DNA from: a virus
Taxonomy: Duplodnaviria; Heunggongvirae; Uroviricota; Caudoviricetes
Virus record (IMG/VR): IMGVR_UViG_3300029705_000023
Location: 45,563 to 109,562 of that record
Length of the DNA: 64,000 nucleotides
Reading direction: 5' to 3' (one strand)
A program made the position numbers and the translations under genes. Positions within the stretch are counted from its first letter, which is position 1. Every line of letters starts with the position of its first letter. Shown one piece after another: positions 21,502 to 38,902 of this stretch. The notes under the pieces are model-generated. The model ran no database searches. It had not been told where the DNA came from and worked only from the letters and a program-made list of their open reading frames with translations.

Positions 21502-21797
21502 AACCGATCCGAGTACTTGCCAGTGCTGCCGTGGAGAATCCGGAAGGGCTTCTTGCGTTGGCAAAGGAGGTCTGCGCAAGGGCGCAGGAGTGTGATTTCG
21601 ACCGCGGTTATCTGGTGGAGATGCTCATGCAGAAGATGCTCCGGACGGGAGATTTTGCAGAGTATGCTCTGATCTACTACCTGACTGCTCTGATCCTGGA
21701 CGCAATGAATGCCGCATCCACTCTCAGGGAGCCGGAAAGGTTTCAGTGGGAGTCTTTTCTGCATGAGCTGAAACGGAGTGTTCCAGCTTATAAATAG
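21498..21797 (+). CDS. Hypothetical protein
   Basis: AAGGAGG RBS, ATGA overlap. Confidence 0.72.
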   Translation: MKPIRVLASAAVENPEGLLALAKEVCARAQECDFDRGYLVEMLMQKMLRTGDFAEYALIYYLTALILDAMNAASTLREPERFQWESFLHELKRSVPAYK

Positions 21798-21800
21798 CCC

Positions 21801-21820
21801 GTTTTGAGGCATATATATTG
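21801..21820 (+). promoter_or_regulatory. Copy of the recurrent GTTTTG(A/G)GGCATA-TAnnnT-G promoter-like motif
   Basis: GTTTTGAGGCATA-TATATT-G; other copies at about 26116, 27187 and 38834. Confidence 0.6.
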
Positions 21821-21831
21821 ATACACCATCG

Positions 21832-26066: not shown

Positions 26067-27264
26067 AGGAGGGAGCGAGCTTCGGTCTGCTCCCTTTTTT
26101 TGCTTAAAAATGCGGGTTTTGGGGCATATAGCATGAATAAAAAGGAGTTAAGTGTTTTAACTCCGCGAATTTTTTTTAAGAAAGGAATAGAAAAATGAAA
26201 AAAGAAAACATGAAAGACGTGAATGGTGTACTGCTGTCGGGCGACGGCAGTACTCTTGTGAGAGTTGCACAGGAGAAGACGAGTTACACCATCCCGGACG
26301 GTGTGACAAGTATCCAGAGCCAGGCATTCTGGCTCTGCGAGGACCTCGAGTTGGTAGTGATCCCCAACAGCGTGACGAGCATTGGAGATCGCGCGTTCGA
26401 CGGGTGTAAGAGTCTCACGTCTGTGACGATCCCTGCTAGCGTGACGAGTGTTGGGAAGGATTTGTTTCCGCACTGTTGGAAACTGACCGAGATCCAAGTC
26501 TCCGCGGGCAATACGCATTTCAAGAGCGTGGATGGAGTCCTGTTTTCCGCAGACGGGAAAACGCTCATTCAGGTCCCGCCCGGGAAACCGGGTGACGAAT
26601 ATGTGATCCCGGAAGGGGTTACGCATATCGGAGATGAAGCGTTCAGCGGCTGCCGTAGCCTCACGTCGGTGACGATCCCCGACAGTGTGACGAGCATTGG
26701 GGCGGGGGCATTCAGCTGCTGCGCCAACCTCACGTCCGTGAAGATCCCCGCCGGCGTGACGAGCATTGGAGCTCGGGCGTTCTTCTTCTGTGAGAGCCTC
26801 ACGTCGGTGACGATTCCCGTGGGCGTTACGCGGATCAGCAGCTTCGCGTTCCAAGACTGCCGTAGCCTCACGTCGGTGACGATCCCCGACGGCGTGACGA
26901 GCATCGGCATGGCCGCGTTCGCCGGCTGTACGAGGCTCACGTCTGTGACGATCCCCGACAGTGTGACGAGGATCAAGGGTGTAGCCTTCTACAGCTGTTT
27001 CCGTCTCACGGACGTGAGACTCCCCGCCGGCGTGAAACTCGAATACGGGGCATTTTCGGATTGTCCCGCATTCGAGTAGGACCGAGAGACCGCCAGTATC
27101 CGGGGCGGTATAGAAGTTCCGGTTTTTGTTTTCAAATAGGAGGGAGCGGGCTTTGGTCTGCTCCCTTTTTTTGCTTAAAAATGCGGGTTTTGGGGGCATA
27201 TATCGTGAGTAAAAGGAGTTAAGTGTTTTAACTCCGCTGATTTTTACTGAAAGGAAATAAAATG
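26067..27264 (+). repeat. ~130-bp direct repeats (terminator + promoter-like motif + hairpin + RBS) flanking the LRR gene 26195-27079
   Basis: 26067-26197 and 27138-27264 share GGGAGC...GCTCCCTTTTTTTGCTTAAAAATGCGGGTTTTGGGG(G)CATATA and GGAGTTAAGTGTTTTAACTCCGC. Confidence 0.9.
26195..27079 (+). CDS. BspA/TpLRR protein with 69-bp units
   Basis: VTIPDSVTSIG repeats and FKSVDGVLFSADGKTLIQVP motif. Confidence 0.93.
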   Translation: MKKENMKDVNGVLLSGDGSTLVRVAQEKTSYTIPDGVTSIQSQAFWLCEDLELVVIPNSVTSIGDRAFDGCKSLTSVTIPASVTSVGKDLFPHCWKLTEIQVSAGNTHFKSVDGVLFSADGKTLIQVPPGKPGDEYVIPEGVTHIGDEAFSGCRSLTSVTIPDSVTSIGAGAFSCCANLTSVKIPAGVTSIGARAFFFCESLTSVTIPVGVTRISSFAFQDCRSLTSVTIPDGVTSIGMAAFAGCTRLTSVTIPDSVTRIKGVAFYSCFRLTDVRLPAGVKLEYGAFSDCPAFE

Positions 27265-31749: not shown

Positions 31750-33396
31750 TTATGCCTCTTCTTCTCCTTTGCAGGGCCAGTAGCGCTGCTTGATCTCGAA
31801 GATCTTCTTTCGGATGGTCTCTGCGTCTTCTTTTCGGGGTGCCGGGTCCATGATGGAGTCTTCATCGATGACACAGTTCAGGTTTACGGTAGTTTTCTGG
31901 GTACCGGAGAGGTACGGACCGCCCAGCTGCCGGTATTCCAGCGGTATTTCCGAGCCGTGAGCGAAGAAATCGATGTGTCCGGAGTCCAGCGTGAACTGGA
32001 TACGGTAGTTTTCCGAGAATGTTTCCTCTTTATCGTCGAGAATGATCTGGTAGATGCCGTGCCAGTAGACGGTCTCGCCTGCCGGGACGCAGTACCACTC
32101 CATGAACGGGCTGTTTTTGAACCATTTCTCGAAAAGGTCCGGTGTTTTGGTGTCTCCTTCCGCGATCAGGTTCCCGTTTTCGTCCGTCAGGGTGCGATTT
32201 GCCTCCGTGACGGCTTCTCTTTCGTTTGTTTCCTCGTCATAGTGCCCCTGCCAGAGCAGGTAGACTTCGCTGTCGGCAGAAACGTCGCTGAATGTCTTGG
32301 TTCCTTCGGACGCGAAGACTGCTTTCAGCCTCCGGACCAGCTTTTTCTGCTCCGGGTCATAGTGCGTGACCCACTGCGGTACCTGATTTCCCTCAAACTG
32401 GTAGTTGGAGATGATCTGCCGGACGAGTTTCAGGCTTCCTTCTCCTTCCAGTATCTCCGCATGACTGTTTATCTTGATGAAAGAGGCTGCCTGAGAGTGC
32501 AGGTTGGTGATGGCCGCCCGGACTTCGATCAGGGGACAGCTTTGCGCCAGTCCAATGACGCTGGCAGCCGCCGTGCCGGTACAATCGGGGATACTCTGCC
32601 ACAGTTTTACGAGTTTATCGTGCTGTTCCCGCAGCCAGCGTGCTTTTCCGCCTATCTCACGGTAGGCGTCGGCTACCTTATTGAGGTATTCCGCGAAAGC
32701 CGTCATGTCTTCGCAGGTACAGCAGGGTTCATTGGTGTTTGCGAGCTGAAGATGCCCGCATCCGACCGCTAACGTCTGTCCGTTGACAGTAGGCAGGAAG
32801 ACAGCTCCGTCTGCATTGGGCTTTACTCCGTTGATGCTGCGCAGAAGGAACTTTTTTTCGACCTCTTCACAGGGGACCGTGACTTTTCCTGTTCCGGCAC
32901 CGGGTACAGCATCCAGTGTGAGCTGATTCTCGCTGCGGAAGTCTTCTCTGGGAGTGCTTCCGAGCTGGATATTGGTTCCGGCAGCGATCTCTATCCTGCC
33001 GGAATGTCCATTGACCGTGCGGATCCTCGGCGGGACGCAGTAAACGGCTCGCAGGTCCAGAACGGCGTGTTCCGGGAGGAGAACGTCCGGGAAATTCCGC
33101 TGATTATTAATAACCATCTTGACCTGAACCGTAGCGGAAGTCCAGGTATAGAGCGTGTAGGCGCCGAAGGGAAGGATCTCCGCTTCTTCGGAGTCCAGAA
33201 CCGGCTGTCCGCTGCAGGTTTCCAGCCGGAGATGTCCTTTGGGCGTGATGCGGGCTATCCGCAGGGGAAGGTCATACTCAAAGCGCGGATCTTCATGACT
33301 GACGGTCATGTCGGCGATGAGGAACTGAATATCCGGCGACGGATCCACAAGCGGATAGTGGTCGCCGTACTGAATATGAGAAATACCGACCGGCAT
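31750..33396 (-). CDS. Putative tail/baseplate protein
   Basis: GGAGG RBS before ATG33396; IRTVNGHSG and SINGVKPNADG fibre/baseplate-type motifs; PCCTC. Confidence 0.55.
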   Translation of the reverse strand: MPVGISHIQYGDHYPLVDPSPDIQFLIADMTVSHEDPRFEYDLPLRIARITPKGHLRLETCSGQPVLDSEEAEILPFGAYTLYTWTSATVQVKMVINNQRNFPDVLLPEHAVLDLRAVYCVPPRIRTVNGHSGRIEIAAGTNIQLGSTPREDFRSENQLTLDAVPGAGTGKVTVPCEEVEKKFLLRSINGVKPNADGAVFLPTVNGQTLAVGCGHLQLANTNEPCCTCEDMTAFAEYLNKVADAYREIGGKARWLREQHDKLVKLWQSIPDCTGTAAASVIGLAQSCPLIEVRAAITNLHSQAASFIKINSHAEILEGEGSLKLVRQIISNYQFEGNQVPQWVTHYDPEQKKLVRRLKAVFASEGTKTFSDVSADSEVYLLWQGHYDEETNEREAVTEANRTLTDENGNLIAEGDTKTPDLFEKWFKNSPFMEWYCVPAGETVYWHGIYQIILDDKEETFSENYRIQFTLDSGHIDFFAHGSEIPLEYRQLGGPYLSGTQKTTVNLNCVIDEDSIMDPAPRKEDAETIRKKIFEIKQRYWPCKGEEEA

Positions 33397-33489
33397 AAAA
33401 TCCTCCTTTATTTTAGATTCTGAAGATTTTAGCATAATTCTGCATTTTCTGCTTGCTTTCGGAAATGGTTTCTTTATCAGATAAGTAAA

Positions 33490-33605
33490 GAGGTCGAACG
33501 CGGTCTCTCAGGTTAGGCGATGTAAGACCTGCTTCGGCAGGCAGACGCCGTTTGAGCCTGGAAGCGCCCTTGAGGCGCGTGCGGGTCCCAAAAAAGGGAC
33601 CGCCC
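33490..33605 (+). ncRNA. Candidate structured RNA upstream of the array (tracr/scaffold-like or leader)
   Basis: CCTGC-UUCG-GCAGG, GCGCC-CTTGA-GGCGC and GGTCCC-A6-GGGACC hairpins within ~110 nt. Confidence 0.45.
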
Positions 33606-33649
33606 CAATATACTGCGTGACGCAAAGGGTAAAGATACAATATACTGGT

Positions 33650-33982
33650 GTGAAGCCCGCGCGTGAGTTGGGGTTTCCAAGGCTGGTATTCATGAAGAGA
33701 GCCAGAGCGGGTGAAGCCCGCGCGTGAGTTGGGGTTTCTGGATCCGTTTTTCTCTTCCCCCTTTGGTCGAGGTGAAGCCCGCGCGTGAGTTGGGGTTTCT
33801 GTAGAGCCGTGGCCCTCGTCGATACCCTGCGGGTGAAGCCCGCGCGTGAGTTGGGGTTTCTACACCCTTTTTGAAGGACAGCCACGCCAATGTGTGAAGC
33901 CCGCGCGTGAGTTGGGGTTTCTAACCATAAGAGGAAAAGAAAAGTGTAACGAAAGTGAAGCCCGTGCGGGAGTTGGTTTTTT
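33650..33982 (+). CRISPR. CRISPR array: 5 identical 28-nt repeats plus 1 degenerate repeat, 5 unique 33-nt spacers
   Basis: GTGAAGCCCGCGCGTGAGTTGGGGTTTC at 33650, 33711, 33772, 33833, 33894; degenerate copy at 33955; period 61; orientation inferred from the degenerate end. Confidence 0.95.
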
Positions 33983-34200
33983 TGGGGGAAGTGACGCAAG
34001 ACGCGCCGCCTCCCAAATGAAGTCTGTGCCCGGGCCGAGGTCTCCGCTGTCTGCCGTAAGCTGGCGGAGCCAATACGCGGGCATGGTTTCCGTTTTCTTT
34101 CAGTTATCCAGGATCCTCGGATAACTGCCTGAGTCCTGATGGACTGTTTTTTTTGAGAGACATGGCGCGGAAGCGCTTATTTTTTTTAGGAGATGTGACA

Positions 34201-35361
34201 ATGCGCGGTTATCGATTCAAGCTCTATACCAAGGCGAAGGAGCGGAGGCAGCTGTCGGATATGATGTATTTGTGCGGAAAGTACTATAACCGCTGTATCA
34301 GGATCTGCCGGCTTTATTACCGCAGGACCGGCAGGAACATTTTTGTGGACCATAAGCAGTACGCGCTGTCTTATTATTTGACGGAAACCCGGAAACGCGC
34401 GAAGGCGAGGGGGAACGGGAATATTCGGAAGTATGACGCGATACCTCGCGACACCCTGTGTAACATTCACAAGCGCATCCGTCTTTCCTACAATCAGTTT
34501 TTCAGAAACCTGAAGCAGAAGCGCAGAGCGTCGCCTCCGAAGTTCCAGCGTGTTCGCGAGTACGGCACGCTCTTTTTTCAGCCGGGCAAAGGCGCGGCTG
34601 TACTTCCTGACGATCAGATCCGGGTAGGAAAGACAAGGTATCGCTACTTCCGTAATCAGCAGTGGACAGGACAGGTGAAGACGATGACAGTCACACGGGA
34701 CGCCTGCGGTGATTTCTGGGTATCCCTGACGGTAGACGAGACACGGACGGAGCAGATGCCAAACTATGGGCGTTCCGTCGGTTTTGACTTCGGGATCAAG
34801 ACTTTCCTGACAGGCAGTGATGGTTCTTCCTTTGAGGCGCCGCAGTATTTCAGGGAGTCGCTCAAGGAGCTGGCGAAGCTCCAGAAGCAGTTTGCCGGAA
34901 AGGAGCGGAGATCTAATAAGCGGGAGGCAATGAGGCTTAAAATAGCGAGACTTCACCGCAAGATCCGGCATCAGCGGGAGCATTTTCAGTGGGAGCTGAG
35001 TAACCGTCTTTTGGAGAAGTATGATATAATCTGTTTCGAGACGCTGAACCTTCAGGGGATGAGCCGCAGTTTCGGCAGGAAGATCGGCGAATATGCTCTG
35101 TACAGCTTTATTCAGAAGCTGACGTACCTTGCGGAAGCCGCGGGAAAGACCATCATACAGATAGACAGGATGTTCCCGTCTTCGAAACTCTGTTCCTGCT
35201 GCGGGTTTAAGAATACGGAGCTGACATTAAGCGACAGGGAGTGGACCTGCCCGCAGTGCGGCAGAAAGCACGACCGGGACATCAATGCCGCTATTAATAT
35301 ACATAACGAAGGAATGGCCCTTTACCATAATCAGGAGAAAGCATGTCCAAAGACAGAGTAG
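34201..35361 (+). CDS. tnpB: TnpB-family (Cas12f-like) RNA-guided nuclease, ~386 aa, array-adjacent
   Basis: N-terminal YRFKLY HTH; RuvC D (VGFDFG), E (CFETL), D (DRDINAA); CxxC...CxxC Zn ribbon; AGGAG RBS. Confidence 0.92.
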   Translation: MRGYRFKLYTKAKERRQLSDMMYLCGKYYNRCIRICRLYYRRTGRNIFVDHKQYALSYYLTETRKRAKARGNGNIRKYDAIPRDTLCNIHKRIRLSYNQFFRNLKQKRRASPPKFQRVREYGTLFFQPGKGAAVLPDDQIRVGKTRYRYFRNQQWTGQVKTMTVTRDACGDFWVSLTVDETRTEQMPNYGRSVGFDFGIKTFLTGSDGSSFEAPQYFRESLKELAKLQKQFAGKERRSNKREAMRLKIARLHRKIRHQREHFQWELSNRLLEKYDIICFETLNLQGMSRSFGRKIGEYALYSFIQKLTYLAEAAGKTIIQIDRMFPSSKLCSCCGFKNTELTLSDREWTCPQCGRKHDRDINAAINIHNEGMALYHNQEKACPKTE

Positions 35362-36986
35362 AAGAGTATCTCGGAAAGAGAGACTGGCGCATTCAGGAGA
35401 ATGCCAATTCCAATTACTGTTATCAGAGTCTGATCAGCCACGTTGCCGGGGCGGCGATCGCGGAGCATACCCTGGAGAATGTATATCCGAAAGAGATAGC
35501 GGACCTGCATCGGGACGGCAGTATGCACATCCACGACCTTTCCAACGGCATTGTTCCCTACTGTGCGGGCTGGTCGTTCATGGATATTCTCCTGAAGGGT
35601 TTTGAGGGCGGACCGGGACGCTTGAGGAGTGCGCCTGCGAAGCATCTGGATTCCATACTTGCCCAGCTGATGAACTTCCTGATCACATTGCAGGGTGAGT
35701 GGGCGGGAGCGCAGGCGATCAACTCCTTCGATACCTTTCTGGCTCCGTTCGTCCGTGCGGACAACCTGACGTATGAGCAGGTCCGGCAGGATATTCAGCG
35801 GTTCGTGTTCATGCTTAACACCGGAATGCGTCTTGGGCAGGCGAGTTTCACCAACGTAACGCTGGACTGGAACTGTCCGAAGGACCTGAAGGACACGCCG
35901 GTCATTATTGGCGGGGAACCTCACGACGAGTGGACGTATGGGGATTTCCCGGAAGAGATGGCGATGATCAACCGCGCTTTTCTGGAAGTGATGCTTGAAG
36001 GGGACGCCGACGGGCGCATCTTTTCCTTCCCCATCCCGACGTACAGCATGACGCCTGATTTTGACTGGAAGGATGAGAATGCCCGGCTTTTATTTTTAGC
36101 TACGGGCAAGTACGGGCTGCCGTATTTCCAGAATTTCATCAGTTCCGACCGGGACCCCAGTGAAGTGCGCAGCATGTGCTGCCGTCTTCAGCTTTCCCTC
36201 AAGGATCTTCGCCATAAGGGAGGCGGACTGTTCGGCTCCGGCGACAAGACAGGAAGCATTGGCGTAGTGACGCTGAACCTGCCGCGGATCGGGTATCTCG
36301 CGAAGGATAAGGAGGACTTCAGGGCACGGCTGGGATCCCTGCTGGACAGTGCCATGCAGGCTCTGGAACTTAAGCGCGGGGAAGTGTCGAAGAACTTCGA
36401 GAACGGGCTGATGCCTTATTCCAAGATCTACCTTGGTACGCTGGATAATCACTTCCATACCATCGGCACGATCGGGATGCACGAGATGTGCATGAACTTC
36501 CTGGGAAAGGGGATCGAGACAGAAGAAGGACGCGCTTTTGCACTGGAGGTCCTGGAAATGATCCGGGAACGCCTCCAGGAATTTCAGGAAAAAACAGGGC
36601 ACCTGTATAATCTGGAAGGTGTCCCGGGCGAGGGAACTTCGTATCGTCTTGCGAAGGAAGACAGAGACCGGTATCCGGAAATGTACACATCGGGAACGGA
36701 GGTGCCGTACTACACGAATTCCTCTCAGCTTCCGGTCGGCTACACGGATGACTTGTTTGAGGCATTGCGGCATCAGGATGAACTCCAGTGCGCCTATACC
36801 GGCGGAACGGTCTTTCATGCCTATATAGGCGAGCAGGTCGAGGATCCGGAGACAGTGGGCAATCTGGTCCGCAAGGTCTTTGAGCACTTCCGTATGCCGT
36901 ATTTCTCCCTGACGCCGACATTCAGTATTTGTCCCGTGCACGGCTACATCCCGGGTGATCACGAGACGTGTCCTTACGATACCTGA
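35343..36986 (+). CDS. nrdD: Class III anaerobic ribonucleotide reductase, core only (no ATP cone, no glycyl-radical tail)
   Basis: DWRIQENAN, HIHDL, PYCAGWS, RSMCCRL, YTGGTVFH, TPTFSICPVHGY motifs. Confidence 0.9.
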   Translation: MSKDRVEEYLGKRDWRIQENANSNYCYQSLISHVAGAAIAEHTLENVYPKEIADLHRDGSMHIHDLSNGIVPYCAGWSFMDILLKGFEGGPGRLRSAPAKHLDSILAQLMNFLITLQGEWAGAQAINSFDTFLAPFVRADNLTYEQVRQDIQRFVFMLNTGMRLGQASFTNVTLDWNCPKDLKDTPVIIGGEPHDEWTYGDFPEEMAMINRAFLEVMLEGDADGRIFSFPIPTYSMTPDFDWKDENARLLFLATGKYGLPYFQNFISSDRDPSEVRSMCCRLQLSLKDLRHKGGGLFGSGDKTGSIGVVTLNLPRIGYLAKDKEDFRARLGSLLDSAMQALELKRGEVSKNFENGLMPYSKIYLGTLDNHFHTIGTIGMHEMCMNFLGKGIETEEGRAFALEVLEMIRERLQEFQEKTGHLYNLEGVPGEGTSYRLAKEDRDRYPEMYTSGTEVPYYTNSSQLPVGYTDDLFEALRHQDELQCAYTGGTVFHAYIGEQVEDPETVGNLVRKVFEHFRMPYFSLTPTFSICPVHGYIPGDHETCPYDT

Positions 36987-36994
36987 GGTATTCA

Positions 36995-38074
36995 ATGATC
37001 AATTTTCATTTATTGTATAAGGCCGCGCAGGCGGAGCGGATGCTGAAAGAAGCAGGTCCTGCTCCGGGTCCTGCACAGCGGGCAGCGGGTCCTGTGAAGA
37101 ATCCGGCGGCAGTGCCGGCTCCGAGGATGAGCACTCTGGATGTTTTGGCGCGGCAGAACGCCAGACCGACGGCGGCGGGTCCTCCGCCGGGATGGGTCCC
37201 GCCTTCCATGCGAAATATCGGACCCGTACCGGTCCCGCGCAGTCCGCAGGGCGGTCCGGCTCCGAAAAGGGTGTACATTCCGCCTGTGCGTCAGGTTCCT
37301 GGATCTGTTACAGGTCCGGGCCGCAAGTTTGCGGCGCTTATAACAAAGGAGACGGAGGCGCAGAACAGGTATCTACGGGATCCTGCTTCTTTAGTGGAGG
37401 GGACACAGCAGGCAGAAGAGGCGTGGCGGGCTGCAGCAGAGAGGGCACAGCGGGAGTATTATCGGAAGCTGTGGGCGGAGGATAAGAAACTGGATCCGAC
37501 ACGGCCGCGCTGGTATCACGGCACTCCGCAGACCGGCTTGTATCCTGTACCGCGTTCGGAGAGAGCTTATCTGGATCGGACGTTTCCTTCGGGCGGCGGA
37601 TGGACAGGTGAAGGTATCCACGGTACCCACGAGTTTGTGCTGCGTACTACACCGGATGAGCTGCCGTATGCGTTGGGAGTTATAGAGCGGTATTCGAAGC
37701 ATCACGGGGTACGGGTGGCACCCACAACACCGCGGGCTATAAGCGATGGAGCGGAGCAGACAGCGCTCTCGCTGCTTAAGTGGTGTCCGCGTGGCTTTAT
37801 TATGCCTTCTCCTCTCAATACTGGTGCCGTGTGGTCAGGCCCGGGTGATCGCGATATGGACTCGTTTTATAAAGAAGACGACGGCAAGAAGATTGAGCGT
37901 TGGGACGGAACCGCGTACGACTATGGAACACGAAGGCGCAGGGCAGATCAGGCTGACGACGACAATTTTTATAATATAGGGACACCGACCCGGTACTCGG
38001 ATAATGTTAGTCTTGGTGGCAAACAGTGGGAGCCTGTGCGGGGAAATGTCAAGCCTCCGGCGGCTAAGCGGTAG
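36995..38074 (+). CDS. Pro-rich hypothetical protein, possibly virion-internal
   Basis: GAGG RBS; KxA motifs; followed by a terminator at 38079-38107. Confidence 0.7.
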   Translation: MINFHLLYKAAQAERMLKEAGPAPGPAQRAAGPVKNPAAVPAPRMSTLDVLARQNARPTAAGPPPGWVPPSMRNIGPVPVPRSPQGGPAPKRVYIPPVRQVPGSVTGPGRKFAALITKETEAQNRYLRDPASLVEGTQQAEEAWRAAAERAQREYYRKLWAEDKKLDPTRPRWYHGTPQTGLYPVPRSERAYLDRTFPSGGGWTGEGIHGTHEFVLRTTPDELPYALGVIERYSKHHGVRVAPTTPRAISDGAEQTALSLLKWCPRGFIMPSPLNTGAVWSGPGDRDMDSFYKEDDGKKIERWDGTAYDYGTRRRRADQADDDNFYNIGTPTRYSDNVSLGGKQWEPVRGNVKPPAAKR

Positions 38075-38787: not shown

Positions 38788-38819
38788 ACAGCAAGGGCAG
38801 GGATGCCCTTCTTTTTTTT

Positions 38820-38854
38820 ACTTAAAAACATAGGTTTTTGAGGCATATACCATG
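38820..38854 (+). promoter_or_regulatory. Copy of the recurrent promoter-like motif
   Basis: ACTTAAAAACATAGGTTTTTGAGGCATA-TACCAT-G. Confidence 0.6.
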
Positions 38855-38902
38855 AGCAACTTATGGTGAGCTGTAAATGATCGCTTTTTTGAAGGAGAAA
38901 GT

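What the first reader, a model, noticed from the sequence alone, without database searches (positions are those of the whole stretch)
33650..33982. Repeat has I-E geometry but a broken Cas6 hairpin, and its reverse strand ends like an IS605 right end
Seen: period is exactly 61 nt (28+33) and 4 of 5 spacers begin with T. The repeat aligns at 17/28 positions with a type I-E-class repeat as I recall it (GTCTTCCCCACGCACGTGGGGGTGTTTC), but the central stem is destroyed; instead the ends can pair (GAAGCCC/GGGTTTC). The reverse complement GAAACCCCAACTCACGCGCGGGCTTCAC ends in TTCAC, reminiscent of IS200/IS605 right-end/omega-RNA 3' ends. Inference: either an I-E array, still extended by host Cas1-Cas2, was re-tooled for TnpB loading, or the repeat derives from an omega-RNA end and is read on the minus strand. 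Orientation is unresolved.
Basis: partly seen in the sequence, partly recalled or inferred. Interest (0 to 1): 0.75.

Follow-up and report, generated by a model that had tools for sequence, protein, structure and literature searches.

The report
Phage TnpB with borrowed CRISPR array
A large gut phage appears to have built a miniature CRISPR system by joining the guide-RNA scaffold of a transposon nuclease (TnpB) to a CRISPR array of the host's type I-E kind, and the array's repeat lost its usual hairpin while changing in step with that scaffold.

Summary
The array is real: five exact 28-nt repeats, two degenerate ones, 33-nt spacers. It is read on the + strand and grows at its 33650 end (strain variants), so the minus-strand 'TTCAC / omega-RNA end' reading fails. 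The repeat is type I-E-derived: complete I-E loci of Thermoguttaceae share the 28+33 geometry, pyrimidine-first spacers, 16-18/28 repeat identity and 11/15 of the leader junction, and a related phage keeps I-E-like repeats. The positions that break the Cas6e hairpin are the ones that pair with it. Best reading (0.75): a TranC-like compact type V system: intact TnpB (dN/dS 0.14), omega-RNA-derived tracrRNA, I-E-derived crRNA, spacers added by host Cas1-Cas2. No protospacer, PAM, host or RNA ends were found; function is inferred. Precedents: TranC, Cas12r. This scan noted a similar layout before in Klebsiella phages (other DNA).

The parts
33487..33563 (+). IS605-type omega-RNA scaffold core (stem 1 with pseudoknot loop, stems 2/3); 5' part of the proposed tracrRNA
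   Evidence: Model from 15 ordinary IS605 omega-RNAs of related TnpBs hits 33488-33591 at 55.7 bits, E=3e-11; next best in the window 11.7 bits; 53 bits in L002 and L011. No Rfam hit.
33496..33501 (+). Pseudoknot strand GAACGC, in place of the GGCAT/GACAT loop of related omega-RNAs; complementary to repeat nt 22-27
   Evidence: 6/6 pairs with the bacterial I-E repeat end, 5/6 with the window repeat; placed by the model alignment. Pairing inferred from the ISDra2 structure (PMC10097598), not measured.
33564..33601 (+). Two hairpins (33564-33578, 33584-33601) where the omega-RNA terminal stem would start
   Evidence: Both kept in L002 through compensatory changes (C-G to T-A in the first; several swaps and one extra pair in the second; C-G to T-G in L011).
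33602..33613 (+). Anti-repeat, pairs repeat nt 14-25 (8 bp, A.A mismatch, 3 bp)
   Evidence: Duplex -14.4 kcal/mol with its own repeat, -9.8 with L002 repeats 1-2; L002 anti-repeat -14.6 with its own, -9.1 with the window's. Top 0.8% and 4.5% of random 16-mers. Double compensatory changes at repeat nt 14, 19, 20; G-C to G-U at 21, 23 (read).
33614..33649 (+). Short leader; its last 15 nt resemble type I-E leader-repeat junctions
   Evidence: 11/15 identical to each of two Thermoguttaceae I-E leaders; spacers are gained next to it. The L002 leader end is not similar.
33650..33982 (+). CRISPR array: 5 exact 28-nt repeats, 1 degenerate trailer repeat, five 33-nt spacers
   Evidence: 15 distinct spacers over the variants, all 33 nt, 14 start with C or T (p=5e-4).
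34017..34044 (+). Seventh, strongly degenerate repeat in register (old trailer end)
   Evidence: 17/28; 62 nt after repeat 6 here, 61 in L005.
34201..35361 (+). tnpB, 386 aa, RuvC D196/E280/D360 and zinc-finger Cys intact; stop overlaps the nrdD start by 19 nt; no omega-RNA at its 3' end
   Evidence: Pfam and NCBIfam; alignment; dN/dS 0.14 vs L002; model pLDDT 84, best fold match ISDra2 TnpB 8h1j; no model hit at the 3' end.

Best explanation
A phage-borne compact type V (TranC-like) CRISPR system. An IS605 TnpB lost its transposase and the omega-RNA at its 3' end; the omega-RNA scaffold now lies upstream of a type I-E-derived array and works as a tracrRNA. Each repeat supplies the two pieces that the scaffold lacks: nt 14-23/25 pair with the anti-repeat (equivalent of omega-RNA stem 4 / Cas12f repeat-antirepeat 2) and the GTTT at nt 24-27 pairs with the scaffold loop (pseudoknot / repeat-antirepeat 1), which puts the guide start at spacer nt 1. 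TnpB cuts DNA matching the spacer, probably of rival mobile elements. The host's I-E Cas1-Cas2 adds 33-nt spacers at the leader. The Cas6e hairpin is no longer needed and decayed while the repeat co-evolved with the anti-repeat, which may also keep the crRNAs out of host Cascade. Shown by sequence: array, polarity, ongoing spacer turnover, I-E likeness, scaffold homology, covariation, intact conserved TnpB, no cas1/cas6e/cas7/tnpA in the record. Inferred: the RNA pairings, loading, cleavage, the acquiring enzyme, targets, and whether scaffold and first repeat pair in cis on one transcript or in trans.
For: Scaffold E=3e-11 on +. Every close relative examined is an ordinary IS element with the omega-RNA at the tnpB 3' end and no adjoining array, whereas here that place is nrdD. 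Cognate repeat/anti-repeat duplexes beat crossed ones by 4.6-5.5 kcal/mol, with 3 double compensatory changes. Polarity: L009 lacks spacer 1; L011/L014 share only trailer spacer 5; a repeat variant fills the three leader-side repeats of L011. I-E origin: complete cas3-cse1-cse2-cas6e-cas7-cas5-cas1-cas2 loci with 28+33 arrays, pyrimidine-first spacers (37/40, 27/28) and similar leader ends; L002 repeats are 16-20/28 identical to them and retain part of the central stem. TnpB under purifying selection, dN/dS 0.14. No cas1, cas6e, cas7 or tnpA in the 94%-complete record. The omega-RNA is a natural tracr+crRNA fusion through stem 4 and the pseudoknot (PMC10097598).
Against: Covariation rests on only two lineages (one independent comparison) and the anti-repeat was located by eye; a 16-mer at 34053 on the minus strand pairs more strongly (-18.2) and the oldest L002 repeat pairs the window tail at -13.5. 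The 100% identity of the scaffold core between the lineages is no sign of selection: the upstream gene is also 99% identical. With the full-length repeat, its own end stem leaves only -2.9 kcal/mol for tracrRNA binding, so processing or protein help is needed. No protospacer or PAM found. The host is only suggested by NrdD names; no host spacer matches the phage.
Confidence: 0.75

Rival explanations
1. crRNA-only system like Cas12r: TnpB loads the repeat through its own end-to-end stem and the omega-RNA scaffold is a leftover.
For: The window repeat folds into a 7-bp end stem (z -2.7) whose start, GAAGCCC, recalls the GAATCCC start of the omega-RNA terminal stem; Cas12r works without tracrRNA on a 29-nt I-E-like repeat (10.64898/2026.04.20.719267).
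Against: The end stem is absent in L002 although its TnpB is 82% identical; hairpins and anti-repeat of the scaffold show compensatory change; the protein has no added domains and matches ISDra2 TnpB, which binds the whole scaffold.
Confidence: 0.08
2. Orphan type I-E mini-array that feeds (or decoys) host Cascade; the TnpB and its scaffold are an unrelated or relic IS.
For: Geometry, first-base bias and leader are those of I-E; cas-less phage mini-arrays are known (own knowledge); L002 repeats keep a 5-6 bp central stem.
Against: The Cas6e hairpin is gone in this lineage while spacers are still gained; no identical repeat in 261 Thermoguttaceae genomes, viral contigs or plasmids; scaffold-array-tnpB order is shared by both lineages and the scaffold has no guide end of its own; anti-repeat covariation is unexplained.
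Confidence: 0.07
3. A decayed system: spacers still accrue passively, but the nuclease is inactive or acts only as a binder or repressor.
For: Long branch (1.19) to the nearest IS TnpBs; degenerate repeats and only two spacers in L002; no targets found.
Against: All three RuvC acidic residues and the zinc finger are kept, dN/dS 0.14.
Confidence: 0.06
4. The repeat is a duplicated omega-RNA / IS605 right end read on the minus strand.
For: The reverse complement ends in TTCAC; arrays with omega-RNA-like repeats are described (PMC10691335).
Against: Scaffold, tnpB, leader-side spacer gain and trailer decay all point to +; no model hit on the minus strand of the array; the L002 repeats lack the motif.
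Confidence: 0.02

Closest known systems
TranC, transposon-CRISPR intermediates (Jin et al., Cell 2025, doi 10.1016/j.cell.2025.09.004, not held; known through PMC13639567 and bioRxiv 10.64898/2026.03.27.714800; LaTranC PDB 9jfo/9jfq)
   Same: IS605 TnpB-sized effector, omega-RNA-like tracrRNA plus crRNA, no adaptation genes; the phage-borne CauTranC9 also lacks domain expansions.
   Different: Repeats reported for clades 3, 9, 11, 20 are 32-38 nt of unknown subtype; here 28 nt and I-E-derived, so the crRNA half looks captured, not split off the omega-RNA. The protein is far closer to ISDra2 TnpB (E 1e-40) than to LaTranC (1e-22). Clade assignment could not be tested.
Cas12r-CRISPR of Thermus Lalka phages (bioRxiv 10.64898/2026.04.20.719267)
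   Same: Phage TnpB-like nuclease with a short array of I-E-like repeats; leader-side spacer gain; host I-E adaptation proposed.
   Different: Cas12r uses crRNA only, and its array follows the gene; here an omega-RNA scaffold with anti-repeat precedes the array, which precedes tnpB. No Lalka phage among the 45 best phage matches.
IS200/IS605 TnpB with omega-RNA (ISDra2, PDB 8h1j, PMC10097598)
   Same: Fold, size, RuvC triad, scaffold stems and pseudoknot loop.
   Different: No tnpA, no right end, no omega-RNA at the gene's 3' end; scaffold moved about 600 nt upstream of the gene and lacks its 3' strand.
Type I-E arrays of the GTCTTCCCC...GTGTTTC class (here G169 and G163, Thermoguttaceae family)
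   Same: 28-nt repeat, 33-nt spacers, pyrimidine first base, leader junction, 16-18/28 identity.
   Different: Cas6e hairpin lost; no cas1, cas6e or cas7 in the phage.
Cas12f / Cas12n (tracrRNA-dependent miniature type V)
   Same: Two repeat-antirepeat contacts predicted.
   Different: No REC/WED expansion, far below the Cas12f2 and C2c8 cut-offs; the tracrRNA is not inside the gene as in Cas12n.

Membership tests
TranC / type V-U (CRISPR-associated TnpB) | TnpB-family RuvC effector with intact catalytic triad | tested here: met
TranC / type V-U (CRISPR-associated TnpB) | Stable link to a CRISPR array, loss of mobility (no transposase, fixed locus) | tested here: met
   Same locus and gene order in all variants and in the 82% relative; no Y1 transposase
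TranC / type V-U (CRISPR-associated TnpB) | tracrRNA homologous to the omega-RNA / reRNA | tested here: met
   E=3e-11; expression not shown
TranC / type V-U (CRISPR-associated TnpB) | Repeat:anti-repeat pairing | tested here: met
   Predicted and covarying in two lineages only
TranC / type V-U (CRISPR-associated TnpB) | crRNA repeat descends from the 3' part of the same reRNA | tested here: not met
   Repeat resembles I-E repeats and not the omega-RNA end of related elements; whether Jin et al. require this could not be read
TranC / type V-U (CRISPR-associated TnpB) | Belongs to a named TranC clade or V-U number | not testable with these tools
   Reference sequences not held; only two clusters above 43% identity, both from this phage group
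TranC / type V-U (CRISPR-associated TnpB) | Dual-RNA-guided, PAM-dependent DNA cleavage | not testable with these tools
   Needs experiment; no protospacer found
Type I-E CRISPR array | 28+33 (29+32) geometry with PAM-derived first base | tested here: met
Type I-E CRISPR array | Central 7-bp hairpin for Cas6e | tested here: not met
Type I-E CRISPR array | I-E cas genes in cis | tested here: not met
   cas1, cas6e, cas7 absent from the 94%-complete record; the cas6e and cas7 searches rang in only 1 of 14 controls, so they are not very sensitive
Type I-E CRISPR array | Identical repeat in a bacterial I-E locus | tested here: inconclusive
   None in 261 Thermoguttaceae genomes; Lentisphaeria genomes could not be reached; host unknown
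IS200/IS605 element | omega-RNA and right end at the tnpB 3' end; tnpA or left end | tested here: not met
Cas12r | No tracrRNA; array directly after the gene | tested here: not met
   Scaffold present, array upstream; dispensability of the scaffold untested

The most novel reading that the evidence does not exclude
An independent, recent birth of a type V system by capture and not by splitting: the omega-RNA lost its 3' strand and re-paired, through a rewritten pseudoknot loop and a new anti-repeat, with a host type I-E repeat, so gaining the host's spacer-acquisition machinery. The two phage lineages record two stages (I-E hairpin partly kept, then lost), and the lost hairpin shows that I-E Cas1-Cas2 keeps integrating 33-nt spacers into a repeat that Cas6e and Cascade can no longer use.
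Probability: 0.55. Interest if true: 0.75.

Novelty: new variant of a known kind. Interest (0 to 1): 0.62.

Why it matters
About 50 independent TnpB-to-Cas12 transitions are inferred (PMC12669027), but how a new effector gets an array and a way to acquire spacers is mostly unobserved. The published model splits the omega-RNA into tracrRNA and repeat (PMC10097598; Jin 2025). Here the scaffold half is plainly omega-RNA and the repeat half plainly type I-E, with the compensating changes readable. It gives a testable guide design for a 386-aa nuclease, and a natural test of which repeat features I-E Cas1-Cas2 needs once the Cas6e hairpin is gone. The general kind (phage TnpB with array, host I-E adaptation proposed) is published for Cas12r, and this scan noted a like layout in Klebsiella phages, which limits the surprise.

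Tried and rejected
Protospacer searches, all negative: 21-23-nt spacer cores in viral contigs, metagenomes, species genomes; arrays against phages and plasmids, a related phage and 261 Thermoguttaceae genomes; no self-target with fewer than 9 mismatches. A 16-nt match of an L005 spacer in two I-E loci has 13-16 mismatches over 33 nt and was rejected. The E=6e-6 hit in G247 lies within a protein-coding stretch, is single, and is not an array. Exact repeat and scaffold patterns find nothing else in viral or metagenome contigs. A related phage (RNA polymerase 45% identical, 88% complete) has no TnpB (76, 77). The one RNA run gave low-depth contigs; one covers 33040-33518, none spans scaffold or array, and DNA cannot be excluded: no evidence either way. 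Near-matches at genome 163450/163777 are coding repeats of a giant gene. The segment 33983-34150 was considered as tracrRNA: no omega-RNA model hit, absent in L002, explained as old array. The phage's own promoter motif is not found ahead of scaffold or array; the sigma70-like site at 33617-33646 is at chance level. Rfam: no hit. The tree is unrooted and quick, so no donor is named. The nrdD dN/dS is from an ungapped pairing and is not used. Jin 2025 and Tordoff 2025 are not held.

Full report
Observation. The window lies in a 187,654-bp phage record, 94% complete, with a multi-subunit RNA polymerase and NrdD. Five identical 28-nt repeats and a sixth with five mismatches stand at a period of exactly 61; spacers are 33 nt and four of five begin with T. 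A seventh degenerate repeat lies in register at 34017-34044 (17/28, background 1.4e-4 per position). The repeat lacks the I-E central stem and folds through its ends.

Orientation. Variants fetched through near-identical TnpBs show gain at the 33650 end: L009 has the window's spacers 2-5 but not spacer 1; L011 and L014 have five other spacers and share only the last; a one-letter repeat variant fills the three leader-side repeats of L011; the degenerate repeats are at the tnpB end. The array is read on +. The TTCAC on the reverse strand is near chance, since any repeat starting GT gives a final AC; it is missing in the relative L002, and the omega-RNAs of related elements end GTATGTCAA.

Origin of the repeat. 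A related phage (TnpB 82% identical, same gene order; L002-L004) has three repeats at period 61 that keep part of the I-E stem. The NrdD relatives that carry names are Victivallaceae, Thermoguttaceae and Lentisphaerae, a weak host hint. In Thermoguttaceae-family genomes I fetched complete I-E loci. Two have 28-nt repeats ending GTGTTTC and 33-nt spacers that start with a pyrimidine in 37/40 and 27/28 cases; they are 18/28 and 16/28 identical to the window repeat, 16-20/28 to the L002 repeats, and their last 15 leader bases match the window's at 11/15. Of 15 phage spacers 14 start with C or T (p=5e-4). The array is therefore I-E-derived; that a host I-E Cas1-Cas2 extends it is an inference from geometry and from the lack of cas1 in the record. 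The identical repeat was not found in any bacterial locus searched, but the host is unknown.

The close relatives of this TnpB that I examined are ordinary IS605/IS1341 elements with an omega-RNA at the gene's 3' end. Here tnpB runs into nrdD. A covariance model built from 15 of those omega-RNAs, without the phage, finds one strong hit in the window: 33488-33591 on +, 55.7 bits, E=3e-11, next best 11.7 bits. The 5' three quarters align well; the terminal stem and the GTCAA end do not. Two hairpins follow, kept in L002 by compensatory changes, then a 12-nt segment (33602-33613) that pairs with repeat nt 14-25. The same place in L002 differs in sequence and pairs with the L002 repeat. Own-lineage duplexes give -14.4 and -14.6 kcal/mol, crossed ones -9.8 and -9.1; there are double compensatory changes at repeat nt 14, 19 and 20 and G-C/G-U changes at 21 and 23. 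These are the positions whose change destroys the Cas6e hairpin. In ISDra2 the omega-RNA acts as tracrRNA and crRNA joined by a loop, held by stem 4 and a pseudoknot just before the guide (PMC10097598). In the phage scaffold the loop that reads GGCAT/GACAT in relatives reads GAACGC, complementary at 6/6 to the bacterial I-E repeat end and 5/6 to the present repeat, in the register that starts the guide at spacer nt 1. Caveats: two lineages are one comparison; the site was found by eye (top 0.8% and 4.5% of random 16-mers); the identity of the scaffold core between lineages reflects a recent exchange, since the upstream gene is 99% identical while tnpB is 81%; the full repeat's end stem competes with the tracrRNA.

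The protein. 386 aa, D196/E280/D360 and zinc finger intact, dN/dS 0.14, fold closest to ISDra2 TnpB without expansions, much nearer to ISDra2 TnpB than to LaTranC by sequence, on a long branch from IS TnpBs (unrooted). Only two clusters in 5.8 billion proteins exceed 43% identity, both from this phage group. No tnpA, cas1, cas6e or cas7.

Mechanism (0.75). Scaffold as tracrRNA, I-E-derived repeat as crRNA handle, TnpB as nuclease, host Cas1-Cas2 as the source of spacers; targets probably other mobile elements (by analogy with Cas12r; none found). Whether the scaffold pairs in cis with the first repeat, 50 nt away with no terminator predicted between, or in trans with all, is open. Rivals: crRNA-only loading (0.08), orphan I-E array (0.07), relic (0.06), minus-strand omega-RNA repeat (0.02).

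Comparison. It works like TranC (PMC13639567; bioRxiv 10.64898/2026.03.27.714800), but the repeat is 28 nt and I-E-derived, where the reported TranC repeats are 32-38 nt; clade membership could not be tested. It shares with Cas12r the I-E-like repeat and the proposed host adaptation, but Cas12r has no tracrRNA. It fails the tests for an I-E locus and for an IS605 element. I found no paper describing this combination in eight searches, with the main TranC paper unreadable. Earlier notes of this scan describe a TnpB + scaffold + I-E array in Klebsiella phages; I did not check them, no Klebsiella phage is among the 45 best phage matches of this protein, and I reached my reading before seeing them.

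Verdict. Observation confirmed, interpretation partly supported, new variant of a known kind, interest 0.62.

Noticed in passing
window about 31990-33564 versus L002: The upstream gene and the scaffold core are about 98-100% identical between the two phage lineages, while tnpB (81%) and nrdD (86%) are not: a recombination boundary falls inside the scaffold near 33564, so one core serves two repeat types.
   Followed up: partly
window 34100-34132; L005 spacer at 88-120: A hairpin upstream of tnpB is 22/33 identical to a hairpin-forming spacer of variant L005; may be an old spacer, a cross-phage target or chance.
   Followed up: no
window 33606-33615 and 33638-33647: 10-nt direct repeat CAATATACTG, 32 nt apart, one copy in the anti-repeat and one at the leader-repeat junction.
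   Followed up: no
L011 spacer 4 (s11): Translates in one frame to ERKKIMADWT, which recalls the C-terminus of P4-like tyrosine integrases (from memory); no match in species genomes.
   Followed up: partly
window 21784-21822, 26099-26137, 27171-27209, 38818-38856: Four copies of a strong shared intergenic motif, probably a phage promoter; no fifth copy in the window and none at the CRISPR locus.
   Followed up: partly
window 35343-36986: NrdD lacks the ATP-cone and the C-terminal tail; Victivallaceae, Thermoguttaceae and Lentisphaerae relatives encode a separate 47-60 aa NRDD piece downstream.
   Followed up: no
window 36968-38074 versus L002, L005: The 368-aa ORF after nrdD is not called in the variants, where the next gene starts about 460 nt after nrdD: probably a strain-specific insertion.
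   Followed up: no
genome C1 41075-41608 (outside the window): Five tRNA genes, with anticodons TAA, TGT, TAC and TAT for A-ending codons.
   Followed up: no
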